From an uncultured Candidatus Saccharibacteria bacterium (lineage in GTDB: Bacteria > Patescibacteriota > Minisyncoccia > Phycocordibacterales > CAYRGE01): DNA of 64,000 nt. The stretch is from contig CAZTCT010000001.1 of the NCBI GenBank assembly GCA_964612415.1, forward strand, positions 137,949 to 201,948. Reading direction: 5' to 3'. Made by a program: the position numbers and the translations under genes. Under the pieces are notes generated by a model. It did no database searches. It was not told where the DNA came from and saw only the letters and a program-made list of their open reading frames with translations. Shown here in pieces: positions 38,101 to 63,947 of the stretch. Each line of letters begins with the position of its first letter. The first letter of the stretch is position 1.

Positions 38101-39386
38101 TTGAACGACAGGTTATTTATACCGAGCTTAATAATGATGTGAATCTGATCGTGCCAGGTGGGGCAAGGGGCGCAAACTGGATGTATGTAAAAGGTGAATC
38201 AGTGGAGCGTCTAATGAATACTCGCCTTCAAGCCCCTCGTGCCGGGTATGTACCACAGCAGAGGAGTCCTTGGTCAGTAAGCGGAAGAATTCATATTGGT
38301 GGTCGCCATTCGGCATCTCAAGATTTTCTTAGAATTGAACATCGGCCCACACCTCCACCGCCAGTATATAGAGGTCCATTGCCAGTAGGACTTCGTTCTC
38401 CAGAGACAGTGGCGAATTTGCAAAGTTACATCAATGCCCTTGAAGAGCAGAGCGGTCTTTCATGGAGAAGGAGCGGCTACTCTGTTGAAAGATATATATA
38501 TGAGGCGACCAAAGTTTCAGGAAGGATGAACAATGTACCTGGCTTTGGCGACAACCCGATTCCTGGACCCGGCGGAGGACTCACCAGATCAAGCGGATGG
38601 TCTCAGGCTATTGCTGAGAACATGCGCAATAATGTCAACCAAGTTCCTAATGCAAAAGTTGCTGATGAATTTGTCAGAGACCATTTCAATGAATTCACAT
38701 CGCAATACTACTCTTCTCCAGAAGGAAGGAGTGATGCGGACCTCAATGTGATGCTTCAGAATGCGTACAAGATGCGCACCTCTCTTAATGAGCTCAACGA
38801 CAAATTTGGTATTTCTGATTATCAGGCGCGAAGCGAGCAGATTGAGGGAATCATCACAAAACTAGAGCGACAGACAGGGGCATCAAGTGGGGCTCCTCGC
38901 ATCGTGGCACGGGTATATGAAGAAAAGGATTTAACACCTTCTTCATTTAGCAAATTAGAACCTGGAGAGATTAAGGATATTCTCAATGTGCCTGTAGGCG
39001 AAGAAGAAGGGAAAGAGGTCATGAAGAATGTTGCCGATGAAGTAAATAAAATCTTCCAAACAAATGGCGCGCCAAAGAATGGGTTTGATTATGGAGAAGG
39101 AATTGGAAATATGAGTGCTGACTGGGAGGATATGAAAGGGAGGACTATAGATGAAATTCTCCATGCCAAGCTTCCTACCTCAAAGATCGTCGACGGCAAA
39201 ATCATTCCTCCAGAGGAGGGGGTCGGCATTCACTCTACGAAATTTTTGACGAAGGTACGCGCAGAGCTTATCCCCAAACTAGAATACCAAAGCGGTCTTC
39301 CTGCACATGGGCCAACTACACTTGAAGATTATATTAAGGATGCCCACGTACTTATAAAACGCGGACCTGACTTTAAGCCTGAATAA
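35115..39386 (+). CDS. Giant (1423 aa) protein: strongly acidic N-terminal region, central double-TM hairpin, long charged/coiled-coil and Pro/Gly-containing C-terminal region; function unknown
   Basis: Uninterrupted ORF. The first approximately 200 aa are Glu/Asp-rich. The hydrophobic segment GMYAAVGAGTRFAVVGALGIAAVPVMGATVAPVAVGAIAASALVGRWIGRRR would make two TM helices. It sits immediately downstream of the coupling-ATPase-like gene. Confidence 0.5.
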   Translation: MSMEGRPRMPSEETPEGSGMTPEDTNLENTERVEPDLHGAAEEILEQRGETGIEVPVISVGDEAQEDPEGGVLEGEALDNALREALHGDDARFEQNVQIETGEIAPVQGEHNDKYVLHEENGARVWRKNNGDESTPIQEGTPDAQNGSEALINDGALEGQEEGEGTPIDADAEKAQEPAVSKEEVSATPESIEREPGSLAVALEETAQSVVAEKQERMEEALSPEQIATPEYAKKAIDHELARLGINPEDIAKDEAFKEFNELSDGQKLLVARDLNRFAFSESKIKAHEEFNKRNQEEGVLNVKRIARNVFRNVNIASYRKAELKKAMAGGVGMHGETLKVLAEKAKIGPEVEIDSAGNLNVQYAKLEGLSAEEQKVVRFYNKVAGNYGRTPAEWGNKSATNEQKMEYWANKEEYNRARKELLALKEAKSSSEDAMQYVNSLDALVTQDQFLNTVSGEKLEESMQRAATGSALWQGWKETITERGMYAAVGAGTRFAVVGALGIAAVPVMGATVAPVAVGAIAASALVGRWIGRRRMRQTLDEKEMLRRHGDKASEEQKNVWKDKLAKTTRATDGGDIESYKKGANERGKILEKRYAERGITVSAEALDDKLGLAFAQFEKEEDPKKRSKALVSLRARIGYTQDKIDKGEVNFGNGVDQLKNQLDLIQGLSRARAHSVIEDPDVKKELDEKMGELTKYQGHMRSRVEQAEKKRINAAGRTGALIAATFTGASYAITDFVMSGKGANLADNAKEFAGHLKAKLPYGLGDEELHRELESSAARVYNPGSENGSNLWNMIEHDLRGDLKGLEGHERDAVIMAGLNKFRELTPEQLKEIGFSSASGENNVENILKLVRPTDRINFSRVYNTADLHNILGRMHAVALEKGEMPVPATGSSVVAESATSSGTPTAPAHVPSGGKAPSVSELPSSAGKSVPPEAADMPLTTQRAIPSEPKGNGSIFSTDEIEKYRGSGGGKVEQVAYTPRTPQEIVKIPSSDFERQVIYTELNNDVNLIVPGGARGANWMYVKGESVERLMNTRLQAPRAGYVPQQRSPWSVSGRIHIGGRHSASQDFLRIEHRPTPPPPVYRGPLPVGLRSPETVANLQSYINALEEQSGLSWRRSGYSVERYIYEATKVSGRMNNVPGFGDNPIPGPGGGLTRSSGWSQAIAENMRNNVNQVPNAKVADEFVRDHFNEFTSQYYSSPEGRSDADLNVMLQNAYKMRTSLNELNDKFGISDYQARSEQIEGIITKLERQTGASSGAPRIVARVYEEKDLTPSSFSKLEPGEIKDILNVPVGEEEGKEVMKNVADEVNKIFQTNGAPKNGFDYGEGIGNMSADWEDMKGRTIDEILHAKLPTSKIVDGKIIPPEEGVGIHSTKFLTKVRAELIPKLEYQSGLPAHGPTTLEDYIKDAHVLIKRGPDFKPE

Positions 39387-45780: not shown

Positions 45781-45884
45781 CGGAGACTCCTCCTCTAGAA
45801 GGTGACTTCTGGGGGCACTCTAAACAATGGTGATATTGTTGTCAAAAACAAAAACGCCCACGAAAGGCGTTTTGTTGTTGGCTG

Positions 45885-46277
45885 TGGAGATGGGGGGATT
45901 CGAACCCCCGTGCAAAAGTGTTCCTCGAACGGTTCTACAAAGCGTAGTTTGTTTCATTTGTTTAGATGCAATGAGTAGAAAACAAACAAAATCTTCATTA
46001 CATCGATCCTCTACATTTCAAAATATTGTCGAGGCGAGCAATATTTCTACATCTGAAGATATAACACCTGTTTGATCATGTCAGATTCACAATCAGCAGA
46101 TGGCTACGCGCTATTTAGGCGTATGCAAACGCGAAGTCGTTCTTCGTAAAGTACGGAGAGACGAGCGCCCGCGCTTTTTGTGCGATATTTGCACTTTTGT
46201 TTGGCATGTTTTTCGAGAGTTGCCATCTCGGCTTTGCGCATAAGAGGGGAGTACCCTTGTCGATGCCTAGCATCCCC
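45885..46277 (-). ncRNA. ssrA: Transfer-messenger RNA (tmRNA, SsrA); inferred tag ending ...KNDFAFAYA-stop
   Basis: The minus-strand 5' end GGGGAUGCUAGGCAUCGACAAGGG parallels the E. coli tmRNA 5' GGGGCUGAUUCUGGAUUCGACGGG. The 3' end is ...GGGGGUUCGAAUCCCCCCAUCUCCA, a tRNA-like T-arm plus acceptor. It sits immediately downstream of smpB. An internal ORF ends GCA-UAC-GCC-UAA. Confidence 0.7.
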
Positions 46278-46730
46278 TTATTGAAAACGGGATTTTATTT
46301 CTCTTTCAACGTCCCGAGCAGTATCGCGCTTCTTAATGGTTTCGCGCTTGTCGTGTTTCTTTTTGCTTCTAGCGAGACCCAAGGAGAGCTTGATATGCCT
46401 ATTTTTAGTATATAACGAAATAGGCACTATTGTCAAGCCCTTCTGGGATTCTTGCGAGGCGAGCCGCTCAATCTCCTCTTTGTTGAGGAGGAGCTTTCTG
46501 TTGCGGAGTGGGTCAAAATCTTTCGGCGCATTATTTTTTTGAAACGCAGGGATATCAGCTCCCACGAGAAATGCTTCGCCGCCACGGACGAGTACGCGTG
46601 CGCCTTCAAGGGAGCCGTGTTTTGCGCGGAGCGTCTTCACCTCAAATCCGTGCAGGGAAATACCGGCCTCCCATTCCTCGAGGATGTCATAGTCAAGCCG
46701 CACCTTTTTTCGCTCTACTAATATAGGCAT
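46278..46730 (-). CDS. smpB: SsrA-binding protein SmpB
   Basis: Full-length match to SmpB (GISLHGFEVKTLR...LLLNKEEI...LARSKKKHDKRE). Its stop codon abuts the predicted tmRNA 5' end. Confidence 0.9.
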   Translation of the reverse strand: MPILVERKKVRLDYDILEEWEAGISLHGFEVKTLRAKHGSLEGARVLVRGGEAFLVGADIPAFQKNNAPKDFDPLRNRKLLLNKEEIERLASQESQKGLTIVPISLYTKNRHIKLSLGLARSKKKHDKRETIKKRDTARDVEREIKSRFQ

Positions 46731-46822: not shown

Positions 46823-48766
46823 ATGCTTCCCGGCAAACAACAAAAGAAGAACGGGGCTCCTGAGCGTGCGCCCAATAAGCGATCTCCTGAAGGAGGGAAG
46901 GAGCAGTTTTTTGGTAATCTCGTTACTGCTATTCTTATATTCCTCATCATTGCGACTGCGTATTCTCTCATCGCTGAGCGTGGTGATGCAGCAGAGAAAA
47001 TCGCACTCTCTACTCTTGCGTCAGATATAAGCGCGGGTAATGTGGTGTCACTTACCGTGTCTGGCAATGTCGTAGAGGCCACATACGCGGATGATTCAAT
47101 AAAAGAGACTCGCAAAGAGAATGAGACAGCTCTCTCTGAGACACTTGCAAACTACGGTGTGCGCCCCAATGCGCTTGAGCATGTAGAGATCACCATAAAA
47201 GAGCAAAGTGGATTTGGGTATTGGTTTGTAAATCTCCTGCCGCTTATCCTACCCATTGCACTCATCATCCTTTTCTTCTGGCTTATCTCACGACAAGTGC
47301 GTGGTGCAGGTATGCAGGCGTTCACCTTCGGGCAATCAAAGGCGCGCATGATTGATCCGAATGACAAAAAGCAGAAGGTGACATTTAAAGATGTTGCCGG
47401 AGCAAAGGAGGCAAAAGAAGAGTTAGTTGAGATCGTAGACTTTTTGAAAAATCCCAAAAAGTTTTTGGAGATCGGTGCGCGTATTCCAAAAGGCGTGCTA
47501 CTTATCGGTGCCCCTGGTACAGGTAAGACATTGCTTGCTCGCGCCGTAGCGGGGGAAGCGTCGGTGCCGTTCTTCATCATCTCTGGCTCTGAATTCGTAG
47601 AGATGTTTGTCGGTGTGGGTGCAAGTCGTGTGCGTGACCTTTTCAAAATGGCGAAAAAAGCTGCGCCCGCAATTATTTTCGTAGATGAGATCGATGCCGT
47701 GGGGCGTGTGCGCGGCACAGGTATCGGTGGAGGTAATGATGAGCGGGAGCAAACACTCAATCAAATCCTCGTTGAGATGGATGGATTTGAACCGAACGAA
47801 AAAGTGATAGTTATGGCAGCCACGAACCGGCCGGATGTATTGGACCCAGCACTCTTGCGACCAGGAAGATTTGATCGTCGCGTGGTGCTTGATCTACCGG
47901 ACATAAACGATCGTGAGGAAATTCTCAAAACTCATTCAGGCAAAAAGCCCCTTGCGGAAGATGTGAACTTTCGCGTTATTGCAGAGCGCACACCAGGATT
48001 CTCTGGTGCCGACCTTGCATCTCTCATGAACGAAGGGGCGATCCTTGCTGCGCGAGAGAATCGCAAGACAGTTTCGCAGTTTGACCTCATTCGCTCCATT
48101 GAGAAAGTGATGCTTGGTCCTGAACGCAAGAGTCATCTTTTGAGTAAAAGGGAAAAAGAAATTACCGCATATCATGAAGGTGGGCATGCGCTTGTTGCGT
48201 CTGTGTTGCCGCACTCTGATCCGGTGCACAAAATCTCTATTGTCTCGCGTGGACACGCAGGAGGGTATACGCTCAAGTTGCCGCTTGAAGAGAAGCGACT
48301 TCGTTCACGCAATGAATTTCTCGATGATATATCAAGCGCGCTTGGTGGGTATGTTGCGGAGAGGATGCTTTTCAATGATTTCACTACTGGGCCTTCAAAT
48401 GATATTGCAGTTGCAACAGCGCTCGCGAGAGATATGGTCACAAAATATGGCATGTCAGAAAATATTGGCCCTGTCGCACTTGAACCGGGGGGAGGCCGAT
48501 TAAGTCCAGGGCATGAGCTCGGGAGACATGAATATTCAGAAACAATCTCAACGAAGATTGATGATGAAGTTTCAAGAATAATGCAGGAGGCAAAAAAGAA
48601 AGCAGAAGACGCTATCACTACACACCGAGAGGCATTAGACGCCATTGCCAAGGAACTCATCCGTGTGGAAACTATTGAGCGGGAAGATTTTGAAAAGATA
48701 CTCGTTGCTCATGGGATTACACCCAAGAAGCTCCCTGAAGAGGAGGCAGCGGACCCGACAAAATAA
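46823..48766 (+). CDS. ftsH: ATP-dependent zinc metalloprotease FtsH
   Basis: Two N-terminal TM helices, an AAA module ([25 protein letters not shown]), SRH, and the HEGGHALVA zinc site. 647 aa. Confidence 0.95.
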
Positions 48767-48782
48767 GTAAGAAATAGGTAAG

Positions 48783-48817
48783 AAAAACGGCTCAACCGAG
48801 CGGTTGAGCCGTTTTTT
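48783..48817. terminator. Palindromic terminator element, family copy 4 (aaaaacggctcaaccgagcggttgagccgtttttt)
   Basis: Same stem as copies 2 and 3 with one central substitution (gatc to gagc), between ftsH(+) and the tRNA(-). Confidence 0.6.
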
Positions 48818-48818
48818 C

Positions 48819-48894
48819 TGGTCCGCCTGGCAGGACTCGAACCTACAACCACGGAGATATAAGCTCCGTGCTCTAACCATTGAGCTACAGGCGG
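48819..48894 (-). tRNA. tRNA with anticodon UAU (tRNA-Ile, AUA-reading); CCA encoded
   Basis: Cloverleaf: CCGCCUG-UA-GCUC-AAUGGUUA-GAGC-A-CGGAG-CUUAUAU-CUCCG-UGGUU-GUAGG-UUCGAGU-CCUGC-CAGGCGG-A-CCA. 7/4/5/5-bp stems, U33, A37. Confidence 0.7.
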
Positions 48895-49010: not shown

Positions 49011-52000
49011 ATGAAGCGCGCGCTTCTTGCTCTGCTTAAAACATTGTTCATTTCTTGCGTTCTTCTTTTTGGAGGTACGCTTGCATTTGCTCAGACTATT
49101 TCTTATACACCGCTTGCTCCTTTGCCTGGAATCAATGATAGTGGTGGGCCAATTACCCTTACCACGTATCTAAGCGGGCTCTTTTATCTTGGACTTGGTA
49201 TTGCAACTATTTTGGCTGTGGTGATGATCGTCTTTGCTGGCGTGCAAATGATCGCAAGCGCAGGCAATGAAGCGTGGCGAAGCGCAGCAAAAGAAAGAAT
49301 TAAAAATGCATTATTTGGCTTGCTCCTTGCTTTGTTTGCATGGCTTATTATTTTTACAGTGAATCCACAAATTCTTGGGGTGCTCTCAACCGGGTTTACG
49401 CTCCAGAGCTCTCCATTTGAGCCGCGTATTCCTGGCACAGGAGGGTGGACTCCAGCAGGTGGGTTCACTCCGCCGCTCGGCACTACACTACCTGGCGGGA
49501 CTGGTTCGGGCGGATCTGGGTTTCCCGTTGGAACATCTGAGCCAAATCCATTTGATATTGACCAGATCATGAGAGATATTGAGAGTGGCAAGCTTGTTCG
49601 AGATCAAATAGAAATTGACCCATCAAGTGACGGGTCGCTTATCCGAACTTGTGCTCAAAAAGAACAAAATGATGGCGAGTGTGCAGCTGCGGATGTGAAT
49701 GGCGATGGGGCTGTGACCATTCTTGACTACAGTTTTCTTATTGATACAACAACAAGATTTGATCTCAATATGGACGGTGTCATTGACCCGTATCCATATA
49801 GACCAATTGAGAGCATGTGCTACATACACGATGGCAGGTACAATCTTTTGGGCATAAATAGTGCTGGAGAGCCGACGACAATCATTGGGATTGATTCAAC
49901 TCCTACACGCACCACGGGGTTCGTATTTGGATTTAATAAGTATGATCCATTTGTAGTCACTGTAGGGGACACTCAATATGAGATACCAAGTAGTGATTAT
50001 CAATATAACTATACACCACGTAATCTTTGGTGGGATTATTTAAGAGCAGATACAGAGCCACGACTTATACAACCACCACTATCAGCGGACGAAATATTCA
50101 ACTTAACTGGCTCTGGTTTGCCACCGGGGCCGCCAGCATTCCCGGGAGACAATCTTCCTCCTCCGCCACCACCTATCCCCAATATTGGCGACGGCGCTCT
50201 TCCACCACCACCACCCGACTTTCCACCAGGTGGGGCGAGTTCTTCTTCGGGGACAGGGAGTACTGGCACCACAGGATCCGTGCCTTCAGGGAGTATCCCA
50301 GTAGTATCTCCTGGGGGTATAACTAGTTTGCCGCTTGTCTCAGAGACGTACTCTCAGAATCAATGTTTTGCAAGTTCGTACGGGACTCGTGTTGGGTTTA
50401 CCATAGCGGAAATTGACATGCTCACAAAAGTTCTCCAGAGCTCTACTGGCGGGGTTCCTGCAACGACAAATTATTATCTCGATCTTAATAAATTGAGTGC
50501 TAATGTTGGGGGATGTTTTGTAAATGGTGCAACATTTGAATTCCTTGGCGGGGATTTCCCTGACAGCTTTAATTTTGGTAGTGGCACCCTTCCTCGGTGG
50601 ATGCATCCTGTGTACTCACATTATTTGTTTAATAATGACTTTTGGCCAAACCCGGACAATTTTTCATTCGGACAATTCTTCTCATTATTTAATAATGACA
50701 GAATCTATGCTTTAGCGGGGTGTAATGTGCAAAGATTCCTCCCGAGCTCCAGTAATCCTGGGCCATTCAGTGCCTATGATCCGATTACCTATACAGAATT
50801 CATGGATAGACCACAGTACATGACAGATACAACCGCACCTCTGCAAATCTTCGGGGCGGCACTTTACGCGACGCTCGTGCAGGCTGACCTCAATCATGAT
50901 GGACGTGTCAATCTTGCAAGCATCGGAGCTCCAACAGGAGATGCTACGCCAGAAGAAATTTCAGCGTGTCTTTCACAAGACCCGGAGAATTTATCAGCAG
51001 AGTGCCAGTCATTAGATATTACCTACGAAGATTTTAGTGGTGACAATGATGATCTTGCGATACTCAACCGCTGTATCACGCAGGATACTGCCACAGGTCC
51101 AGTGGGGGATTGTGTTCAAGCAGACTTCAACCAAGATGGGCATGTTACGACGGCAGACCATAACGGACTTTCTGCGTTGCTCGGCCTTGTGGGGCTAACT
51201 GAGGATCTGCGCACGGAAGGTCTAAGCAGAGCTCCTAATGGAGTAGTCCCTGTTCAAGACTTTGATATCTTACTTTGGACTCCCGACACAACCTATTCTG
51301 ACGCTGACATTCTCAATTTCTGTCTTGGGAAGAAAAAGTGGGGAGGGTGTGAGACGTCCGATCTTGATGGAGATGGACGTATTGATGCAAATGCTCCACC
51401 CCAGGCAACGCGGACCGATGCAGCAATCAACTTCAATTGGGGGTCAGGGAGTCCTATGTCTGGCATTGGGAATGATTGGTTTATTGCCCGATGGACAGCA
51501 GATGTAGATCTTCCAGCTGGAGATTACCGCTTCACGGTGACTGTTGATGACGGGGTTCGTGTGTATGTAGACGACAGACTCATTATTGATAAGTGGAAGA
51601 ACCAAAACTCTCCTACATATACAGCAGATATGACTTTAGCTGCCGATACGCACAATATTCGCGTTGAATATTATGAAGCACGCAATGCGGCGCTTATACA
51701 ATTTGACTTTGGTCTTGTGGGAGGCTCTCCAGTCTCTGTCCCCGGAGGATATGCTGCAGAATTTTGGAACATGGCAAGTAATGCCCGCGGAGCGTCACCT
51801 GCTATTCCTACGGGTGATCAACTTTTGATGAATGATATCAAGAAGTATGACATCAATGGCGACGGGATCATCTCCTTTGAAGGCAATCTTGTTCACCTCA
51901 CCGCACTCTCAACTACTATTGAGGTGGGTGGTAGAGTGCGTTTGGATTGGGATACTTCACGTGTTACGGATTGTGTTGCATCAAGTGAGCCTGCTGGGCT

Positions 52001-52931
52001 CTGGTCTGGGCCAAAGGCACTCAATGATAGTGAGATCAGTCCAATTTTAAATCAAAAAACAGCGTTCACTCTTACATGTACTAATGAACGTACAGGCTTA
52101 CCGATGTCTAATACTGTTAAAGTAGACGCTGTAGATACCACACCAATTGAGTTTAATCCAGATAACATCACTATTTCAGTATCTCCTTCATCAGTCTCTG
52201 CAGGAGATAGTGCGCGTATTTCTTGGAATGCCATTGGGGCCACAAGCTGTACCGCATCAGGAGGATGGAATCCCGTCATCAACACCTTTGGCACATATCC
52301 AGCAGATAATGTCCAAACAACCCAAACATTTGTCATCACTTGCGAACGAGATGGCGTGTCGGGAACTGCAAGCACTACGCTTGAGGTGGTACCAAGGGTT
52401 CCTGTCACATTGCTCGCTGCTCCAAGCGATGTTGCAATGAATGGATCAGCAAAAATTTCATGGGTTGCTTCAAATGTGCGACAAGGAAGAGATGGTGTGT
52501 GCACTGCTTCAGGGGATTGGAGTGGCTCTTATCGCGCCTCTGGAGAAGTTACAGTGAATAATCTAACTGCGACGAGCACGTTCTTTATGACTTGTGGGGG
52601 AGAGACTGCATCTGTTGTCGTCACCGTGAGACCATCTGTTTCTGGTGGAGGGTTTATTCCGGAAGCTATCGTTCTCTCTGCTACGCCTCCGCAAATCAAT
52701 CCAGGGTCTGTTGTTTTCCTCACATGGAGCGCACCTGGTGCAACCAATTGTATAGCAAGTCATCCGGTAGGGAGCCCTACTGTTCCCGGGTGGACTGGAC
52801 TCAAGGAGAGTGGAGGATTTGAACAATATACACTCCCTGCTTCAATTATTTCTGATACCATTGAATTTGCTCTTTCCTGTACGGATGGGACAAATAGTGG
52901 CTCAAAAACAGCAAGCATTGTCGTAAACTAG
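49011..52931 (+). CDS. Giant secreted/surface protein (1306 aa): signal peptide, VirB2/TrbC-pilin-like double-TM N-terminal domain, Pro-rich linker, dockerin/EF-hand-like Ca-binding repeats, PA14 domain, C-terminal Ig-like domains
   Basis: Start set at MKRALLALL... (signal peptide). The upstream part of the track ORF overlaps the tRNA. Hydrophobic pair LFYLGLGIATILAVVMIVFAGV / LFGLLLALFAWLIIFTV. Repeats DVNGDGAVTILD, DLNHDGRVNL, DFNQDGHVT and DLDGDGRID. PA14-like NFNWGSGSPMSG...FIARWTADVDLPAGDYRFTVTVDDGVRVYVDDRLIIDKW...HNIRVEYYE. Confidence 0.6.
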   Translation: MKRALLALLKTLFISCVLLFGGTLAFAQTISYTPLAPLPGINDSGGPITLTTYLSGLFYLGLGIATILAVVMIVFAGVQMIASAGNEAWRSAAKERIKNALFGLLLALFAWLIIFTVNPQILGVLSTGFTLQSSPFEPRIPGTGGWTPAGGFTPPLGTTLPGGTGSGGSGFPVGTSEPNPFDIDQIMRDIESGKLVRDQIEIDPSSDGSLIRTCAQKEQNDGECAAADVNGDGAVTILDYSFLIDTTTRFDLNMDGVIDPYPYRPIESMCYIHDGRYNLLGINSAGEPTTIIGIDSTPTRTTGFVFGFNKYDPFVVTVGDTQYEIPSSDYQYNYTPRNLWWDYLRADTEPRLIQPPLSADEIFNLTGSGLPPGPPAFPGDNLPPPPPPIPNIGDGALPPPPPDFPPGGASSSSGTGSTGTTGSVPSGSIPVVSPGGITSLPLVSETYSQNQCFASSYGTRVGFTIAEIDMLTKVLQSSTGGVPATTNYYLDLNKLSANVGGCFVNGATFEFLGGDFPDSFNFGSGTLPRWMHPVYSHYLFNNDFWPNPDNFSFGQFFSLFNNDRIYALAGCNVQRFLPSSSNPGPFSAYDPITYTEFMDRPQYMTDTTAPLQIFGAALYATLVQADLNHDGRVNLASIGAPTGDATPEEISACLSQDPENLSAECQSLDITYEDFSGDNDDLAILNRCITQDTATGPVGDCVQADFNQDGHVTTADHNGLSALLGLVGLTEDLRTEGLSRAPNGVVPVQDFDILLWTPDTTYSDADILNFCLGKKKWGGCETSDLDGDGRIDANAPPQATRTDAAINFNWGSGSPMSGIGNDWFIARWTADVDLPAGDYRFTVTVDDGVRVYVDDRLIIDKWKNQNSPTYTADMTLAADTHNIRVEYYEARNAALIQFDFGLVGGSPVSVPGGYAAEFWNMASNARGASPAIPTGDQLLMNDIKKYDINGDGIISFEGNLVHLTALSTTIEVGGRVRLDWDTSRVTDCVASSEPAGLWSGPKALNDSEISPILNQKTAFTLTCTNERTGLPMSNTVKVDAVDTTPIEFNPDNITISVSPSSVSAGDSARISWNAIGATSCTASGGWNPVINTFGTYPADNVQTTQTFVITCERDGVSGTASTTLEVVPRVPVTLLAAPSDVAMNGSAKISWVASNVRQGRDGVCTASGDWSGSYRASGEVTVNNLTATSTFFMTCGGETASVVVTVRPSVSGGGFIPEAIVLSATPPQINPGSVVFLTWSAPGATNCIASHPVGSPTVPGWTGLKESGGFEQYTLPASIISDTIEFALSCTDGTNSGSKTASIVVN

Positions 52932-53017: not shown

Positions 53018-56000
53018 TTGTGTATGATGCGTAAATTCCTTCCGATTTTTGCTTTGACCTTAGTTGCTTCCGCTAGTTTTTTGCTCTCTCCTTCATTAAG
53101 TCGCGCGCAAACGACACTCTCTGAGGAGGAGCAGCTCGCGCAAATGGCCTCATTGCTGCAAGCGCTGCAGTCTGTGGTCAATACACTAAGCGCTGCGTCA
53201 GGGCAGAGTGCGCAGGGTGTTCCGCCACCGCCACCTCCGCCACCATCACCTGCAGGTGATGGATACTTTGGGGAATATTGGAGCACTCCTTCTGCGGGAG
53301 CGTCACCTGCGATACCAACAACTGCGCCAACCGCCACTCGTCTTGATACAAGCATTAACTTCTCTTGGGGGTCGGGGTCTCCTATGTCGAGTATCCCCTC
53401 CGATCACTTTATTGTTCGTTGGACAAAACAGCAGGATTTTTCGGGAGGGGACTATCTATTTAGTGTAAATGCCGATGATGGCGTGCGTTTGTATATAGAT
53501 GACCAGCTCGTTATTAATCAATGGATCAACCAATCCGCAACAACATATACCGCCGGGCGAACGCTTGCTGCAGGGACTCATACATTGCGAATTGAATATT
53601 ACGAAGCAGCTGGCTCTGCGACGATGCAGTTTAGCTTTACTCAAACAGCTGTTGCTCCTCCGGTTACCCCAGCCCCCACCGTCACCCTCACCGCAAACCC
53701 AACTTCAATCACACAAGGACAATCATCCACCCTCACCTGGAGCTCAACCAATGCCACAAGCTGTACCGCATCAGGCGGATGGACAGGCACCAAGACAACG
53801 TCAGGTACTCAAGCAGTCTCACCAACCGCAAACACTACCTACACCCTCACTTGTACAGGAGCAGGTGGAAGTGCAAACCAGAGTGTGACGGTGGGGGTGA
53901 GTGCAAACCCTGCACCAACGGTTACCTTTACCGCAAACCCAACTAGTACGACCGCTTCTCAGGGCGCAACTCTTTCGTGGAGCTCAACCAATGCCACAAG
54001 CTGTACCGCATCAGGCGGATTTTTGTGGACAGGAAGTCGCGCATTGTCTGGCTCTCAATTTATTACCCCTGAATCAACCACTACCTTCACTCTTGCATGT
54101 ACTGGGGCAGGTGGAACTACCACAAAAACGGCCACCGTTACGGTTGTCTCTTCTGGAACTACAAGTGGTCAGCTTTCTGGGAGCGCAAGCGTAAAGGCTT
54201 CGTCGCAGAACACCGATCTTTCGTCAGAAGGCACTACTGATTGGGTTCATTGGGGTTTATCAATCCCAACAAGTGTGAATCGAAAGTCTGGAGTGACGGG
54301 GCAGATTGGTTCTATGACGACCATTGGTGCAGCCTCTCTCAAGCGCTACGCTGACGATCGTGCGAAAGTATCTTGGGTCGGCGGTACGCCTACTGCAAGT
54401 ACAGGGAGTACTCCTGCCGGAGTGTACATAAAAGTAAATGGAAGTGGTTACACATTCACTGTTCCTGCAGATACGACAACACGCACACTAAAAATTTATC
54501 TTGGTGCGTGGAATGCGCAAGGTCTATTCCAAGCTTTTCTCAATGACAACAGTGCGAGTCCATACTCGGTGATTGTTGATGCTGGGTCAACGGGGACAGC
54601 AACAGATCGTGTCATTACGCTCACATATAAAGCTGCGTCAGCAGGGCAATCCCTGACAGTGCGCTACACACTTTTTGATGATTATGGGCTTGACGGGAAC
54701 ATCACTTTACAAGCAGCTACGCTTCAAGGTGTTTCTTCCACCCCAGCCCCCACCGTCACCCTCACCACAAACCCAACTTCAATCACACAAGGACAATCAT
54801 CCACCCTCACCTGGAGCTCAACCAATGCCACAAGCTGTACCGCATCAGGCGGATGGACAGGCACCAAGACAACGTCAGGTACTCAAGCAGTCTCACCAAC
54901 CGCAAACACTACCTACACCCTCACTTGTACAGGAGCAGGTGGAAGTGCAAACCAGAGTGTGACGGTGGGGGTGAGTGCCGCAACGGCCTACAATCTTGTT
55001 TACAGTACATCAGCGAGCCGCTCAAACCCCGCCGCTCTTAATGGCGCGGTAGTTTCGGGAGGTATCTATGTATTCTTGACCCCAGAGACGAACATAACTG
55101 GGGATGTGCTCTTTTATATAGATAACGTTTCTGGCAGTGGTACTGCGTATAAGACAGAATCAAACGCTCCGTATGATCTTGCGGGTACAAACACAAGTAA
55201 TGGAAGTGCGGCGCCGTACAACACAGCACAACTTTCTAATGGAACTCATACTGTTACCGTGCGACTTAACACGAATACGGTACTTACCTCAACGTTTACT
55301 GTGGCGAACAGCTCTTCCACCCCAGCCCCCACCGTCACCCTCACCACAAACCCAACTTCAATCACACAAGGACAATCATCCACCCTCACCTGGAGCTCAA
55401 CCAATGCCACAAGCTGTACCGCATCAGGCGGATGGACAGGCACCAAGACAACGTCAGGTACTCAAGCAGTCTCACCAACCGCAAACACTACCTACACCCT
55501 CACTTGTACAGGAGCAGGTGGAAGTGCAAACCAGAGTGTGACGGTGGGGATAGAGCTCGGGTATTTTGGAGAGTATTGGGATGTACCAACGGCGGGAGCC
55601 TCTCCTTCAATCCCAAGCACTGCACCAACATTTACGCGCATTGACCCAGCAATTGATTTTGATTGGACTACGAATGCACCAGGTACCTCGGTCGCCGCTG
55701 ACCACTTCATTGTACGCTGGACACGAAATGTTGATTTTGTCGCGGGAACATATCGCTTTACTGCATCAAGCGATGATGGGGTGCGCGTGTACGTTGACAA
55801 TCAACTACTTATAAATGACTGGACTAATCATGGCGTACGCACCTATGTGAATGACCTGACCCTTTCTGCGGGCAGTCATGCATTGCGCATTGAGTATTAT
55901 GAAAATACAGGCAGTGCGGTCGCGCAATTTAGCTTCGCACCAGTAACCTCTACCGGGAGTGTTGATACACAAGCTCCAACAGTAGTTATGACCTCTCCAT

Positions 56001-58306
56001 CATCAGGGGCTACTGTATCTGGTACGGTCGGTATCAGTGCTAGTGCCGCGGATGATGTGGGAGTAGTCGGAGTACAGTTCAAATTAGATGGAGCAAATCT
56101 TGGACCCGAAGATACAAGTGCTCCGTACGCCATGTCTTGGGACACCACAAGCGCGGCGAGTGGGGCACATACCATTAATGCAGTTGCACGAGATGCAGCG
56201 GGGAACAATAGGACATCTACCGGCGTATCTGTCACAGTAAATAATCTCACCGCACCACCGCCACCGCCAGCACCAGCACCCTCTTTTGACTCGCAGGCGC
56301 CGACAATTTCAGGAATAACTACCTCCAGTATTACTACAAGTGGAGCAGTTATCTCATGGACCACAAACGAAGCAACTACGCAGCAAGTAGACTATGGGCT
56401 TTCGGCATCATATGGGGCACAAACAAGTACACAAACGAGCCTTTCTACAAGTCACAGTGTTACATTAAGCAATCTCTCGCCAAACACTACGTATCACTTT
56501 CGAGTTCGCTCTGCTGACGCGGCGGGGAACGTGAGTGTCTCTCTTGATCAAACACTTACTACTGCATCCTTGGCAGATACGCAAGGTCCAAACGCAATCA
56601 CCAATGTTTCCGTTTCTGATATTCGTTCAAATTCAGCAACGGTGACATGGACTGTTCCCTCGGACATTCCTTCCGGTGCTCCTGCTTCATATGACTTGCG
56701 CTATAGCACCACGCTCATAACGCTAAGCAACTTCTCATCACGCACACAAGTGGCTGGTGAGCCAACTCCAACGAGTGCGGGTGCAACGCAAACATATACC
56801 CTTGCTGGGCTATCTCCCAGTACGCTCTACTATGTGGCTATTGTGTCAAAAGATGCTGCGGGGAATACATCATCTATATCAAATGTGATGACGTTTACCA
56901 CTGTCGCTGAAACAACCACTACCACAACCAGCACAAACAGTGGCACGAATACCTCTACCTCTTCTGGGACAAATAGTGGCACCTCGTCTAGTGGCGGAGG
57001 TGGTGGAGGAGGTGTTGTACAAACAATTGCTTCACCAAGAAACTTTATTGCGAGAGGGGCATCAAACCAGATTCTACTCTCATGGAGCAATCCACAAGAC
57101 ACTGAATTTATTCGTGTAAAAATAGTGCGAAAAGCAAACAGTGTTCCATCTTCATCATCCGACGGTACTACTGTGTATGAGGGAACAAACCAGACTTTCA
57201 CTGACACTAATCTTTCAAGAGACATCCTCTATTATTATGCTGCGTATAGTATTGATCGATCACTCCGTACTTCATCCGCTGTGTACGCCCAAGCGCGGCT
57301 AGGGCAACTCTCCGACGCAGAGGCAACGCAATCTCTTACGACCACTTCAGGAGGCGTCCCCACTGCACCCACAGCTCCTTCTGCGCCACAAATAAACACA
57401 GGCACAGTACCAACGGGAGTGTTTACCATAGGCTTGCAGGTGGGCTCTCGAGACATTCAAGTAAAACAACTCCAGCAACTTCTCAACTCTCTCGGCTTCA
57501 CGGTCGCTGAAAATGGCGCAGGTTCATCTGGTAATGAAACCGAGTTCTTCGGCCCAGCAACGGCGAATGCTGTCGCGCGATTCCAAGCTGAAAATATCCC
57601 TGAAGTTTCTCCGACGGACCGTGGTCTTGTCGGGCCAGTCACAAGAGTAAAACTTAACTCACTCGCATCAAGTGCTGGACTTGTGTCAACTACAGCTTCT
57701 TCTGTTTCAAATACCACCTCAACACAAGTACCCGCAGTATCTAGTGGGGCAGTACGTTTTACGCGGAACCTAAAAGTAGGCGATAGAGGAAGTGATGTGA
57801 AAGATTTGCAACAAGCGCTCAACTCTCTCGGCTTTACGGTCGCGTCTAGTGGCGCGGGGTCCTCAGGTAATGAAACCGAGTTCTTCGGTCCAGCGACGGC
57901 GGACGCGGTAGCACGTTTCCAAGAAGAATATAAGCAGGAAGTGCTTGCTCCGTACAATCTTGCTCGCGGGACTGGATTTTTTGGAGCATCAACTCGAACA
58001 AAGCTCAATACTCTTGTGGGGGGAGAAGGGAGTGGGGCAGGAGATACCGCAGCACTCATTGCGCTTCTCCAGGCACAACTTCTTGCGCTTCAAGCACAAC
58101 TTGCAGCTATTCTTTCAGGGCAAACAACTCAAGTAACTGTGCCATCTATTTCAACCCCAATTCCTACCACACCAAGTGCACCAACGACTTCACCTGACAA
58201 CAGTGCGCAAACATCAACTGATACATCGGGAGATACTACAGGGAGTACCTCTTCGGATTCTGGCGTACCACCGCCACCTCCGCCTCCACCGCCTCCTGCG
58301 TTTTAA
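53018..58306 (+). CDS. Giant cell-surface protein (1762 aa): signal peptide, two PA14 domains, at least four near-identical Ig-like (Big) repeats, two FN3 domains, two peptidoglycan-binding (PG_binding_1) repeats, poly-Pro C-terminus
   Basis: Signal peptide MRKFLPIFALTLVASASFLL. PA14-like blocks at about 53273-53648 and 55551-55935 (HFIVRWT...DDGVRVYVDNQLLINDW...LRIEYYE). Repeated PAPTVTLT(A/T)NPTSITQGQSSTLTWSSTNATSCTASGGWTG...YTLTCTGAGGSANQSVTVG. FN3-like ISWTTNEATTQQVDYG...YHFRVRSADAAGN. PGBD-like DIQVKQLQQLLNSLGFTVAENG...FFGPATANAVARFQ (twice). Confidence 0.65.
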   Translation: MCMMRKFLPIFALTLVASASFLLSPSLSRAQTTLSEEEQLAQMASLLQALQSVVNTLSAASGQSAQGVPPPPPPPPSPAGDGYFGEYWSTPSAGASPAIPTTAPTATRLDTSINFSWGSGSPMSSIPSDHFIVRWTKQQDFSGGDYLFSVNADDGVRLYIDDQLVINQWINQSATTYTAGRTLAAGTHTLRIEYYEAAGSATMQFSFTQTAVAPPVTPAPTVTLTANPTSITQGQSSTLTWSSTNATSCTASGGWTGTKTTSGTQAVSPTANTTYTLTCTGAGGSANQSVTVGVSANPAPTVTFTANPTSTTASQGATLSWSSTNATSCTASGGFLWTGSRALSGSQFITPESTTTFTLACTGAGGTTTKTATVTVVSSGTTSGQLSGSASVKASSQNTDLSSEGTTDWVHWGLSIPTSVNRKSGVTGQIGSMTTIGAASLKRYADDRAKVSWVGGTPTASTGSTPAGVYIKVNGSGYTFTVPADTTTRTLKIYLGAWNAQGLFQAFLNDNSASPYSVIVDAGSTGTATDRVITLTYKAASAGQSLTVRYTLFDDYGLDGNITLQAATLQGVSSTPAPTVTLTTNPTSITQGQSSTLTWSSTNATSCTASGGWTGTKTTSGTQAVSPTANTTYTLTCTGAGGSANQSVTVGVSAATAYNLVYSTSASRSNPAALNGAVVSGGIYVFLTPETNITGDVLFYIDNVSGSGTAYKTESNAPYDLAGTNTSNGSAAPYNTAQLSNGTHTVTVRLNTNTVLTSTFTVANSSSTPAPTVTLTTNPTSITQGQSSTLTWSSTNATSCTASGGWTGTKTTSGTQAVSPTANTTYTLTCTGAGGSANQSVTVGIELGYFGEYWDVPTAGASPSIPSTAPTFTRIDPAIDFDWTTNAPGTSVAADHFIVRWTRNVDFVAGTYRFTASSDDGVRVYVDNQLLINDWTNHGVRTYVNDLTLSAGSHALRIEYYENTGSAVAQFSFAPVTSTGSVDTQAPTVVMTSPSSGATVSGTVGISASAADDVGVVGVQFKLDGANLGPEDTSAPYAMSWDTTSAASGAHTINAVARDAAGNNRTSTGVSVTVNNLTAPPPPPAPAPSFDSQAPTISGITTSSITTSGAVISWTTNEATTQQVDYGLSASYGAQTSTQTSLSTSHSVTLSNLSPNTTYHFRVRSADAAGNVSVSLDQTLTTASLADTQGPNAITNVSVSDIRSNSATVTWTVPSDIPSGAPASYDLRYSTTLITLSNFSSRTQVAGEPTPTSAGATQTYTLAGLSPSTLYYVAIVSKDAAGNTSSISNVMTFTTVAETTTTTTSTNSGTNTSTSSGTNSGTSSSGGGGGGGVVQTIASPRNFIARGASNQILLSWSNPQDTEFIRVKIVRKANSVPSSSSDGTTVYEGTNQTFTDTNLSRDILYYYAAYSIDRSLRTSSAVYAQARLGQLSDAEATQSLTTTSGGVPTAPTAPSAPQINTGTVPTGVFTIGLQVGSRDIQVKQLQQLLNSLGFTVAENGAGSSGNETEFFGPATANAVARFQAENIPEVSPTDRGLVGPVTRVKLNSLASSAGLVSTTASSVSNTTSTQVPAVSSGAVRFTRNLKVGDRGSDVKDLQQALNSLGFTVASSGAGSSGNETEFFGPATADAVARFQEEYKQEVLAPYNLARGTGFFGASTRTKLNTLVGGEGSGAGDTAALIALLQAQLLALQAQLAAILSGQTTQVTVPSISTPIPTTPSAPTTSPDNSAQTSTDTSGDTTGSTSSDSGVPPPPPPPPPPAF
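53670..53904 (+). repeat. Intragenic direct repeat copy 1 (approximately 230 bp, Ig-like domain unit)
   Basis: Near-identical at nucleotide level to 54744-54978 and 55321-55549. It differs by one or two bases, e.g. accgcaaac versus accacaaac. Confidence 0.8.
54744..54978 (+). repeat. Intragenic direct repeat copy 2
   Basis: Same approximately 230-bp unit. It also creates spurious alternative-frame ORFs in the track (54675-54962). Confidence 0.8.
55321..55549 (+). repeat. Intragenic direct repeat copy 3
   Basis: Same unit. It ends at the junction with the second PA14 domain. Confidence 0.8.
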
Positions 58307-61930: not shown

Positions 61931-61935
61931 CCTAC

Positions 61936-62021
61936 GGAGGCGGAAGGATTCGAACCTTCGGACCAGTTTCCCGGTCAGCAACTTAGCAGGTTGCTGCATT
62001 CGACCGCTCTGCCACGCCTCC
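61936..62021 (-). tRNA. tRNA-Ser (anticodon GCU), class II with long variable arm, G73 discriminator; CCA not encoded
   Basis: GGAGGCG-UG-GCAGAGCGGUCGAAUGC-A-GCAAC-CUGCUAA-GUUGC-UGACCGGGAAACUGGUCC-GAAGG-UUCGAAU-CCUUC-CGCCUCC-G. Confidence 0.75.
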
Positions 62022-62067
62022 AGTGTGAGAATGGTGCTACTCTAACACATTTTCTGTTTGCGGGCGA

Positions 62068-62825: not shown

Positions 62826-63947
62826 ATGGCTGGAGTTATTTCAAAAATCTTAAAATTTAATCTGACACCCGGGAAAGTAGTGATTGGTATTGATATCGGA
62901 ATGTCAGCGATCAAAGTAGTGGAGCTTTCTGGTGAGAGAGGGAAGGCGATACTCAAAAATTACGGAGAGATCGCTCTTGGTCCTTACGCAAGCAGCACGA
63001 TAGGCCAGGCGGTGCGGCTTTCTGAGGAACGTATCGCACAGGCTATCACTGATGTCCTTAAAGAAGCTAAAATAGAAACAAAAAGAGCGGTGCTTGCGCT
63101 TCCTCTTGGCTCCACACTCCTCTCTTTCATTGAAGTGCCTACGGCAGACGAAGAAAAACTTGCGCGGATTATTCCCATTGAAGCCAGAAAATATATTCCG
63201 GTGCCAATATCAGAGGTGACGCTTGATTGGTGGGTCCTTCCACAACATGGTGATATCACACAAGTAAAAGCGGGAAGTGTGGGCGAGCCCGCAGAAAAGC
63301 AGAGTAAAATGTCTGAAGTGGTCATCTCTGCGATTCACAATGAAACGCTGAGTAAATTTTTAAGAATTCAGTCTGAGGCGAAGCTTGATGTTAAGCAATT
63401 TGAAATAGAAATATTCAGCAGTATCCGCTCTGTTATTGGTCGGGACATGTCTCCGATCATGGTTTTAGACATGGGCGCTGGAAGCACAAAACTTGCAATG
63501 GTAGAATATGGAATAGTGAGAGGGTACCATATCATCAACAAAGGGGCGCAAGATGTAACACTTGCCCTCGCTTCATCTTTGGAGATTAGCATGGAGAAAG
63601 CAGAGGAGGTGAAGCGCACAGCTGGTCTTGATGGAATGGTTGACGGTAAAAAGATCGCAGATGTTGCTTCTACTACCCTTGAGTATATTTTCAGCGAAGC
63701 TGAAGCGGAAATGTTGAAATATCAAAGAAAGACAGGTAAGCCAGTGAGCCGCCTTATCCTTGTGGGGGGAGGGGCGATGCTCAAGGGCGTTGATAAGCTT
63801 GCTAAGGACACGCTCAAAGTTGAGGTTGTGCGTGGCGATCCATTTGCAAAAACCGAGGCTCCCGCCTTCCTTGCCCCAACGCTTCGCGAGGCTGGTCCTG
63901 AGTTTGCAGTTGCCATCGGCGCGGCACTTAAAGCCCTTGCAGAATAA
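62826..63947 (+). CDS. pilM: Type IV pilus assembly ATPase-like protein PilM (actin/FtsA fold)
   Basis: VIGIDIGMSAIKVVEL...ALPLGSTLLSFIEVP...LDMGAGSTKLAMVEYG...LILVGGGAML is the PilM/FtsA-like pattern. 373 aa. Confidence 0.8.
   Translation: MAGVISKILKFNLTPGKVVIGIDIGMSAIKVVELSGERGKAILKNYGEIALGPYASSTIGQAVRLSEERIAQAITDVLKEAKIETKRAVLALPLGSTLLSFIEVPTADEEKLARIIPIEARKYIPVPISEVTLDWWVLPQHGDITQVKAGSVGEPAEKQSKMSEVVISAIHNETLSKFLRIQSEAKLDVKQFEIEIFSSIRSVIGRDMSPIMVLDMGAGSTKLAMVEYGIVRGYHIINKGAQDVTLALASSLEISMEKAEEVKRTAGLDGMVDGKKIADVASTTLEYIFSEAEAEMLKYQRKTGKPVSRLILVGGGAMLKGVDKLAKDTLKVEVVRGDPFAKTEAPAFLAPTLREAGPEFAVAIGAALKALAE

What the first reader, a model, noticed from the sequence alone, without database searches (positions are those of the whole stretch)
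48819..48894. tRNA with UAU anticodon (AUA-decoding tRNA-Ile) and C1-G72 first pair
The cloverleaf is clean, with encoded CCA. Anticodon loop CUUAUAU places U34-A35-U36. Most bacteria decode AUA with tRNA-Ile2(CAU) modified to lysidine by TilS. A genomically encoded UAU anticodon is rare, known from a few Mycoplasma, Bifidobacterium and Lactobacillus lineages. It implies loss of TilS and a different solution to AUA/AUG discrimination. The C1-G72 start is also atypical, since most elongator tRNAs begin G1.
Basis: partly seen in the sequence, partly recalled or inferred. Interest (0 to 1): 0.55.

Follow-up and report, generated by a model that had tools for sequence, protein, structure and literature searches.

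The report
Conserved AUA-reading tRNA-Ile(UAU) in Paceibacteria
This is a genuine, working transfer RNA gene that reads the isoleucine codon AUA with an unusual UAU anticodon; it is not a one-off, because 72 of the 80 closest relatives retrieved from this uncultivated bacterial group (Paceibacteria/Parcubacteria-type) carry it in the same place next to ftsH.

Summary
Window 48819-48894 (minus strand) encodes a clean 76-nt tRNA with anticodon U34-A35-U36, a C1-G72 pair, A73 and an encoded CCA (ARAGORN; Rfam 70.6 bits).

The window comes from a Paceibacteria/Parcubacteria-type (CPR) bacterium. Of the 80 most similar ftsH loci in public genomes, 72 carry a tRNA-Ile(UAU) beside ftsH, and none has CAU there. 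Across 58 distinct sequences the cloverleaf is 99.8% paired, with compensatory changes in 17 of 21 pairs. C32-U33-U34-A35-U36-A37 is invariant.

AUA makes up 17.7% of Ile codons in the window. In ftsH alignments it sits at isoleucine positions exactly as AUU and AUC do. So this is the functional AUA decoder.

C1-G72 is real and specific to this tRNA. It occurs in 42 of 72 copies, against G1 in all 37 neighbouring tRNAs, but it alternates with G1-C72 among relatives.

The inference "TilS has been lost" could not be tested. No tilS, ileS or tRNA(CAU) lies in the window or in 1.3 Mb of related loci, but whole genomes were out of reach. Published cases also exist where tRNA-Ile(UAU) and tilS coexist.

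Verdict: a new, large-clade member of a known kind. Moderate interest.

The parts
48819..48894 (-). tRNA-Ile(UAU) gene, 76 nt including the encoded CCA (48819-48821). C1 = 48894, G72 = 48823, A73 = 48822.
   Evidence: ARAGORN; Rfam tRNA at 70.6 bits; own covariance model at 88.8 bits; sequence read.
48859..48861 (-). Anticodon U34 (48861), A35 (48860), U36 (48859). The 7-nt loop C32-U38 spans 48857-48863.
   Evidence: ARAGORN places the anticodon at position 34. The Rfam alignment places CUUAUAU in the loop. C32 U33 U34 A35 U36 A37 are invariant in 58 distinct orthologues.
48782..48817 (.). 16-bp hairpin with an A-run on one side and a T-run on the other. It lies between the stop of ftsH (48766) and the 3' end of the convergent tRNA gene (48819). 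It is probably a bidirectional intrinsic terminator serving both genes.
   Evidence: RNA fold -25.3 kcal/mol, z = -5.6 against shuffles. Terminator-like site reported on the + strand. The A-run and T-run were read. Its function is inferred.
46823..48766 (+). ftsH (AAA + Peptidase_M41). This is the conserved neighbour used as the synteny anchor. It is context, not part of the tRNA.
   Evidence: Pfam. 72 of 80 related ftsH loci have a tRNA-Ile(UAU) within the held flank.

Best explanation
The gene encodes the minor isoleucine tRNA of a Paceibacteria/Parcubacteria-type (CPR) bacterium. Its anticodon is written in the genome as UAU. U34 pairs with the third-position A of AUA, so no lysidine modification of a C34 is needed to read that codon.

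Shown:
- The tRNA is intact.
- It has been under strong purifying selection, with an invariant anticodon loop, across a deep clade.
- AUA is used at a substantial frequency and at isoleucine positions.

Inferred:
- It is charged by IleRS. A73, U12-A23, C4-G69 and A37 are present.
- It is the main, and probably the only, AUA decoder.
- AUG is rejected either by the ribosome acting on an unmodified U34, as shown for Mycoplasma mobile, or through an unidentified U34 modification. The invariant C32 and pyrimidine-38 are candidates for tuning codon affinity.

CCA is encoded here, but in only 8 of the 72 copies, so maturation in the clade generally relies on a CCA-adding enzyme. In this genome the gene is convergent with ftsH and shares a hairpin terminator with it.
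For: Gene and structure:
- Gene calls.
- Clade assignment: best ftsH relatives are Nomurabacteria, Yonathbacteria, Paceibacterota and Parcubacteria MAGs at 66-75% identity. T4SS-pilin/PA14 giant proteins typical of CPR lie next door.
- Conservation: 71 relatives by ARAGORN plus a truncated copy in L036. There are 0 CAU genes at this locus.
- Covariation: 99.8% of cells paired, 17 of 21 pairs with double changes, score 0.715 against 0.07-0.14 for slid controls.

Identity features:
- A73 in 72 of 72 copies.
- U12-A23 in 58 of 58 sequences and C4-G69 in 51 of 58.

Codon evidence:
- AUA is read as Ile: 877 AUA codons in 81 ftsH genes have partner residues 53.5% I, 16% V, 12% L and 3.5% M. This is indistinguishable from AUU and AUC.
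- AUA is 216 of 1218 Ile codons (11.6 per 1000) in the window. It is avoided in highly expressed genes: EF-Tu 0 of 26, EF-G 1 of 51. That is the pattern of a codon read by a minor tRNA.

Mechanistic precedent: PMC3575796.
Against: - No direct evidence of expression, aminoacylation or the modification state of U34.
- IleRS was not available, so its adaptation to UAU is unknown.
- Two E. coli IleRS identity elements as I recall them (own knowledge, not checked here) are not conserved: position 38 is C or U rather than A, and the 29-41 pair varies.
- Whether a second AUA decoder (tRNA-Ile CAU plus TilS) coexists is untested.
- Four relatives with 1.9 kb or more of downstream flank show no copy (L010, L033, L034, L079). 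In other relatives the gene lies up to 8-10 kb away, so this is not evidence of absence.
Confidence: 0.88

Rival explanations
1. Redundant decoder. The genome keeps the canonical TilS plus tRNA-Ile2(CAU→lysidine) system, and this tRNA-Ile(UAU) is a second, auxiliary AUA reader, as proposed for Lactobacillus casei, Cyanothece and Ferrimonas.
For: PMC3575796 documents bacteria with both systems. The same paper describes tilS as widely distributed in all bacterial clades. Only 64 kb of this genome, and about 20 kb of each relative, could be inspected.
Against: - A redundant gene would be expected to be lost or to drift. Instead it is kept in 72 of 80 relatives with an invariant C32-A37 loop.
- No U34→C34 reversion is seen in any of the 73 copies (72 complete plus truncated L036). 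If TilS were available, a single transition to C34 should be tolerated.
- No ORF over 150 aa with the PP-loop motif SGGxDS in the window. Across the 1.3 Mb of related loci only two ORFs carry the motif, one probably GuaA (motif at residue 218 of 509 aa) and one with the motif at residue 165; neither was checked against Pfam.
- No CAU tRNA at all in that DNA.
All of this is indirect.
Confidence: 0.4
2. Decaying or non-functional tRNA copy: a pseudogene, or a mobile-element or phage-derived tRNA.
For: None beyond the unusual anticodon and the C1 start.
Against: - Full-length Rfam match at 70.6 bits with no mismatched pair.
- Syntenic conservation beside ftsH across relatives whose FtsH is only 66-75% identical to the window's.
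- Abundant compensatory substitutions.
- No integrase or phage genes were seen in the ORFs scanned around it.
Confidence: 0.02
3. Codon reassignment. The UAU tRNA carries an amino acid other than Ile (for example Met, as AUA means in many mitochondria), or reads both AUA and AUG.
For: A U34 could in principle wobble to G. Other CPR lineages are known to have recoded UGA (own knowledge).
Against: - AUA columns in the ftsH alignment have the same residue spectrum as AUU and AUC. Met is 3.5% against 2.7%.
- The discriminator A73 and the U12-A23 and C4-G69 pairs fit what I recall of the E. coli IleRS identity set (own knowledge).
- The window ORFs were delimited with the three standard stops and give full-length Pfam matches, which does not suggest stop-codon recoding.
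Confidence: 0.03

Closest known systems
Mycoplasma mobile tRNA-Ile2(UAU), the TilS-independent AUA decoding system (Taniguchi et al. 2013, PMC3575796)
   Same: A genomically encoded UAU anticodon in a bacterial tRNA-Ile that reads AUA. A37 follows U36, which is the t6A site. The host is a small-genome, host-dependent bacterium. AUA is used as Ile.
   Different: - In M. mobile, U34 was shown to be unmodified, tilS and tRNA-Ile(CAU) were shown to be absent, and IleRS carries Arg865 in place of the Trp that contacts base 34. None of these could be examined here.
- M. mobile is a single species within a tilS-positive group. Here the trait is found in 72 of the 80 closest related species retrieved.
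- This tRNA has a C1-G72 / G1-C72 alternation and a pyrimidine at position 38.
Bifidobacterium and Neorickettsia tRNA-Ile(UAU) with a eukaryote-type IleRS (PMC3575796)
   Same: Bacteria with a tRNA-Ile(TAT) gene, reported to lack tilS.
   Different: Those lineages use an IleRS of the eukaryotic/archaeal type. The IleRS type of Paceibacteria was not determined here.
Lactobacillus casei, Cyanothece PCC 7424 and Ferrimonas balearica: tRNA-Ile(UAU) coexisting with tilS (PMC3575796)
   Same: The same kind of tRNA gene. They show that the gene does not by itself mean TilS is gone.
   Different: These are scattered single strains or species. Here conservation is clade-wide with an invariant anticodon loop, which argues for an essential rather than an auxiliary role (inference).
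Canonical bacterial tRNA-Ile2(CAU) modified to lysidine by TilS
   Same: The same job (AUA → Ile), the same general body (D-arm UAGCUCA..GG.UAGAGC, A73) and C4-G69.
   Different: Position 34 is T in the gene in all 73 copies seen (72 complete plus truncated L036), never C. No lysidine step is required for codon reading.
Eukaryotic cytoplasmic tRNA-Ile(UAU), with a ΨAΨ anticodon
   Same: A UAU anticodon that reads AUA.
   Different: As I recall (own knowledge), eukaryotic genes carry an intron needed for Ψ34/Ψ36 formation and start with G1. This gene has no intron.

Membership tests
tRNA (Rfam RF00005) | Cloverleaf scoring above the family gathering threshold, with a 7-nt anticodon loop containing U33, a GG D-loop and a GTTCRANNC T-loop. 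| tested here: met
   70.6 bits against gathering score 29, full model 1-71. ARAGORN call. 99.8% pairing and 17 of 21 covarying pairs in orthologues.
Bacterial tRNA-Ile(UAU) AUA decoders | Anticodon UAU encoded in the gene. | tested here: met
   Invariant in 58 distinct orthologues.
Bacterial tRNA-Ile(UAU) AUA decoders | AUA is a sense codon translated as Ile in the host. | tested here: met
   The residue spectrum at 877 AUA codons equals that of AUU and AUC. AUA is 17.7% of Ile codons in the window. This is an indirect, comparative test.
Bacterial tRNA-Ile(UAU) AUA decoders | Isoleucine identity: aminoacylation by IleRS. | tested here: inconclusive
   A73 in 72 of 72, U12-A23 in 58 of 58, C4-G69 in 51 of 58, and A37 invariant. 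However, position 38 is C or U rather than A, and 29-41 varies. The identity set is recalled from E. coli work (own knowledge). No enzyme data.
TilS-independent AUA decoding system (M. mobile type) | No tilS gene in the genome. | not testable with these tools
   No ORF over 150 aa with the PP-loop motif SGGxDS in the 64-kb window; two motif-bearing ORFs in 1.3 Mb of related loci, neither looking like TilS. Whole genomes could not be fetched. A TilS profile search reached only Aquificae and Enterobacteria.
TilS-independent AUA decoding system (M. mobile type) | No tRNA-Ile2(CAU) gene in the genome. | not testable with these tools
   No CAU tRNA of any kind in the window or the loci, but these cover only a small part of each genome.
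TilS-independent AUA decoding system (M. mobile type) | IleRS adapted to U34: Arg or Lys at the E. coli Trp905 position, or a eukaryote-type IleRS. | not testable with these tools
   No IleRS in the window (Pfam) or in the loci (motif scans).
TilS-independent AUA decoding system (M. mobile type) | U34 unmodified, with AUG rejected by the ribosome. | not testable with these tools
   This needs tRNA mass spectrometry and ribosome binding assays.
tRNA-Ile2(CAU)/lysidine system | C34 in the gene, as the substrate for TilS. | tested here: not met
   T at position 34 in the window and in all 72 related copies, including truncated L036.

The most novel reading that the evidence does not exclude
The Paceibacteria/Parcubacteria-type lineage sampled here, part of one of the largest uncultivated bacterial groups, has as a clade abandoned the near-universal TilS/lysidine system and relies solely on a genomically encoded tRNA-Ile(UAU). 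That would make it by far the largest bacterial lineage to do so: a fourth independent origin, at well above the species level. In this reading, the invariant C32 with pyrimidine-38 and the recurrent G1-C72 / C1-G72 flips are lineage-specific tuning or identity elements that let IleRS and the ribosome handle a U34 anticodon without misreading AUG.
Probability: 0.45. Interest if true: 0.62.

Novelty: new member of a known kind. Interest (0 to 1): 0.45.

Why it matters
Separating AUA (Ile) from AUG (Met) is a classic decoding problem. Bacteria are textbook users of lysidine for it, and the essential enzyme TilS has been considered as an antibacterial target. tRNA-Ile(UAU) is still described as a rare exception; a 2026 preprint cited here says so.

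Finding it fixed, syntenic and invariant across the relatives retrieved from a very large uncultivated group suggests the exception may be the rule for a sizeable part of bacterial diversity.

It also yields about 70 natural sequence variants of such a tRNA. These can be used to study how IleRS and the ribosome cope with U34.

On the practical side:
- In these genomes tRNA(UAU) should be annotated as the AUA decoder.
- Completeness or 'essential gene' checks that expect TilS and tRNA-Ile2(CAU) may mislead for this clade, if TilS is indeed absent.

Tried and rejected
1. Finding the source genome. Exact-match look-ups of FtsH, SmpB, EF-Tu and PGK from the window all returned nothing. The rest of the genome could therefore not be inspected.

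2. Looking for tilS and ileS locally.
- Pfam scans of 30 window ORFs, including all those 283 aa or longer except the two I took to be EF-G and EF-Tu by size and position (not scanned), found neither.
- Motif scans (SGGxDS; GWD[CTS]HG[LVI]P; K[MLIF]SKS) over all ORFs of 80 aa or more in the window plus 80 loci found only two SGGxDS ORFs over 150 aa, one probably GuaA, and no IleRS.

3. Reaching Paceibacteria TilS through the protein database. A profile of E. coli, Geobacillus and Aquifex TilS N-domains returned only Aquificae and Enterobacteria. The word pre-filter cannot be steered to a clade. I ran no further search on it.

4. Literature. No paper in the held library links Patescibacteria/CPR with lysidine or tilS. 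Hits for 'tilS' with 'Patescibacteria' or 'Saccharibacteria' were tumour-infiltrating-lymphocyte papers. The Patescibacteria tRNA-intron preprint does not discuss tRNA-Ile(UAU). The supplement of PMC3575796 listing the nine species is not held.

5. Promoter scan. No sigma-70-like site was found upstream of the tRNA, so the promoter remains unidentified.

6. Plasmid search of the ftsH-tRNA stretch. Only a weak ftsH match was found.

7. Treating C1-G72 as a clean subclade marker. On a rough FtsH neighbour-joining tree the 1-72 state needs about 16 changes. It is therefore either flipping repeatedly or the single-gene tree is too noisy. I draw no firm conclusion.

8. A metagenome scan for C34 variants was considered and dropped. 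Any usable pattern would also match elongator tRNA-Met and tRNA-Ile2 of all bacteria.

Full report
**1. Is it there?**

Yes. ARAGORN reports a tRNA-Ile with anticodon tat at position 34 at 48819-48894 on the minus strand. Rfam's tRNA model matches 48822-48894(-) end to end at 70.6 bits (threshold 29, E = 2e-13) with no non-canonical pair.

Read, the RNA is CCGCCUG UA GCUC AAUGGUUA GAGC A CGGAG CUUAUAU CUCCG UGGUU GUAGG UUCGAGU CCUGC CAGGCGG A CCA.
- C1-G72;
- loop CUUAUAU, with U34 at 48861, A35 at 48860 and U36 at 48859;
- A73;
- encoded CCA.

**2. Where does the window come from?**

The tRNA gene is convergent with ftsH (46823-48766, +; Pfam AAA + Peptidase_M41).

A 16-bp hairpin lies between them at 48782-48817, flanked by an A-run and a T-run (-25.3 kcal/mol, z = -5.6; terminator-like site). 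It probably terminates both genes. That function is inferred.

Upstream of ftsH are smpB (46278-46730, -) and a tmRNA (45882-46277, -; Rfam 121.8 bits). Downstream are two giant secreted proteins with PA14, T4SS-pilin-like, Ig and FN3 domains.

The ftsH product finds its best relatives, at 66-75% identity, in MAGs named Nomurabacteria, Yonathbacteria, Paceibacterota, Parcubacteria and Patescibacteria. The window is therefore from a Paceibacteria/Parcubacteria-type (CPR) bacterium that is not itself in the species-representative set. Four of its proteins are also absent from the exact-match index.

**3. The main new result: the gene is a conserved feature of the relatives, not a curiosity.**

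I scanned the 80 related ftsH loci (about 1.3 Mb).
- ARAGORN finds a tRNA-Ile(tat) in 71 of them, usually within 50-900 nt downstream of ftsH.
- A covariance model built from these sequences recovers one more copy, cut by the contig end, in L036. It also carries UAU.
- Of the eight loci without a copy, four (L004, L008, L014, L045) have under 600 nt of downstream flank.
- The other four (L010, L033, L034, L079) have 1.9-10 kb. In some genomes the gene lies 8-10 kb away (L007, L067), so absence from the flank is not absence from the genome.
- No locus has a CAU gene in this position. No CAU tRNA of any kind occurs in the 1.3 Mb.

**4. It is under selection as a tRNA.**

In 58 distinct sequences:
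- 99.8% of the 1218 pair cells are standard pairs;
- 17 of 21 pairs show changes on both sides;
- the covariation score is 0.715, against 0.07-0.14 when partners are slid by 1-3 columns.

Invariant positions include U8, A14, G18, G19, the T-loop, and the whole stretch C32-U33-U34-A35-U36-A37. Position 38 is always a pyrimidine: C in 57 and U in 15 of 72 copies. The window has U, as do its closest Yonathbacteria/Nomurabacteria-like relatives. A73 is present in 72 of 72 copies.

**5. AUA is isoleucine and is really used.**

In an alignment of 81 ftsH genes, the residues that other sequences place opposite 877 AUA codons are 53.5% I, 16.2% V, 11.7% L and 3.5% M. For AUU and AUC the Ile share is 53.1% and 56.2%, and Met is 2.7%. 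There is no sign of reassignment.

In 52 ORFs of the window, AUA accounts for 216 of 1218 Ile codons (17.7%; 11.6 per 1000). It is nearly absent from EF-Tu (0 of 26) and EF-G (1 of 51), as expected for a codon served by a minor tRNA. In the 81 ftsH genes it is 22.5% of Ile codons.

**6. C1-G72.**

The pair is real and specific to this tRNA. Among the 72 copies the 1-72 pair is C-G in 42, G-C in 29 and A-U in 1. All 37 other tRNAs in the same DNA start with G1: Ser-GCU, Ser-ACU, Arg, Ala and Val (and for the window's tRNA-Ser).

It is not fixed, however. Acceptor stems that are otherwise identical occur in both forms, for example CCGCGUG and GCGCGUG. On a rough FtsH tree about 16 changes of state are needed. 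That tree is a crude single-gene neighbour-joining tree, so the number is only indicative. The pair is always a Watson-Crick pair, and a G/C pair in 71 of 72 copies. I regard the orientation as an unexplained, recurrently flipping character rather than a defining identity element.

Encoded CCA is the exception, present in only 8 of 72 copies.

**7. How it most likely works.**

Shown: a conserved, intact tRNA whose gene-encoded anticodon is complementary to AUA, in genomes that use AUA as Ile.

Inferred from the M. mobile precedent (PMC3575796):
- U34 reads A.
- IleRS must accept U34. E. coli IleRS charges a UAU variant at only about 1% efficiency. M. mobile IleRS uses Arg865. Bifidobacterium and Neorickettsia use a eukaryote-type IleRS.
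- AUG must be rejected, either by the ribosome acting on an unmodified U34 or through a U34 modification.

The invariant C32 and pyrimidine-38 are candidates for tuning codon affinity. This is speculation; position 38 departs from what I recall as an E. coli IleRS identity element (A38).

**8. What could not be settled: TilS.**

PMC3575796 lists bacteria with both tilS and a tRNA-Ile(TAT) gene.

- No ORF over 150 aa with the PP-loop motif SGGxDS occurs in the window. In the related loci only two ORFs carry it, one probably GuaA, and neither resembles TilS in motif position; neither was scanned against Pfam. No IleRS-like ORF was found.
- These cover only a few percent of each genome.
- A TilS profile search returned only Aquificae and Enterobacteria.

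Indirect arguments favour a sole-decoder role:
- near-universal retention of the gene;
- an invariant anticodon loop;
- no U34→C34 reversion in any of the 73 copies seen (72 complete plus truncated L036). With TilS present, that transition should be tolerated.

I put the TilS-less reading at roughly 0.45-0.6.

**9. Comparison with what is known, and novelty.**

tRNA-Ile(UAU) as a bacterial AUA decoder is known. PMC3575796 reports nine tilS-less species in three clades, plus a few species with both systems. A 2026 preprint (doi 10.64898/2026.02.03.703510) still calls these 'rare cases'.

I found no paper in the held library connecting CPR/Patescibacteria with tilS, lysidine or tRNA-Ile(UAU). 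The library is incomplete, and annotation pipelines will have called these genes routinely.

The finding is therefore a new member of a known kind, but one that extends across many species of a very large group. It is of moderate interest now. The interest would be higher if the whole-genome census confirms loss of TilS.

Noticed in passing
L025 17269-17358, L026 18798-18883, L029 17635-17722, L032 15241-15326, L043 17877-17964, L046 21382-21470, L047 19908-19997, L051 13968-14057, L059 20168-20257, L065 14172-14259, L080 17381-17470: Eleven related Paceibacteria-type loci carry a tRNA-Ser with anticodon ACU (A34; loop UUACUAA; long variable arm; compensatory changes in the anticodon stem). 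In nine of them it lies within about 100-800 nt of the normal tRNA-Ser(GCU); in L026 and L080 the two genes are about 0.8-1.1 kb apart. As far as I know, A34 outside tRNA-Arg(ACG) is unusual in bacteria. If it were deaminated to inosine it would risk reading AGA (Arg). The window itself has only tRNA-Ser(GCU), at 61934-62022(-).
   Followed up: partly
window 45882-46277 (-) and 46278-46730 (-): The tmRNA (Rfam 121.8 bits) starts immediately after the smpB stop, so the two are probably co-transcribed. ARAGORN did not call this tmRNA in the window, although it called tmRNAs in most relatives. The Rfam alignment shows a long insertion in the tag-reading-frame region.
   Followed up: no
the 72 tRNA-Ile(UAU) copies (window 48894/48823 and L001-L080): The 1-72 pair alternates between C-G (42), G-C (29) and A-U (1), sometimes on otherwise identical acceptor stems. 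About 16 switches are needed on a rough FtsH tree. Repeated double transversions at one pair are unexpected and unexplained.
   Followed up: partly
window 49011-52931 (+) and 53018-58306 (+): Two giant predicted secreted or surface proteins (about 1300 and 1762 aa). Domains include PA14, a T4SS-pilin-like N-terminus, dockerin/EF-hand-like repeats, Big_7, FN3 and peptidoglycan-binding domains. This is typical of CPR cell-surface or host-attachment repertoires.
   Followed up: no
window 32317-35079 (+) and 35115-39386 (+): A 920-aa ATPase with weak VirD4/TraG/HerA-like matches is followed by a 1423-aa ORF with no Pfam match. This may be a type IV secretion or DNA-uptake-related pair.
   Followed up: no
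L006 13707-13766 (-) and 13540-13613 (-): Two weak matches to the tRNA-Ile(UAU) model (23.9 and 21.7 bits) lie directly on either side of the real tRNA gene in a Nomurabacteria locus. They may be decayed tRNA copies or other tRNA-like elements.
   Followed up: no
window 62826-63947 (+), 8899-10398 (+), 6429-8150 (+): PilM, a ComEC-type competence channel and RecJ are present. This is the type IV pilus and DNA-uptake gene set, common in CPR as far as I know.
   Followed up: no
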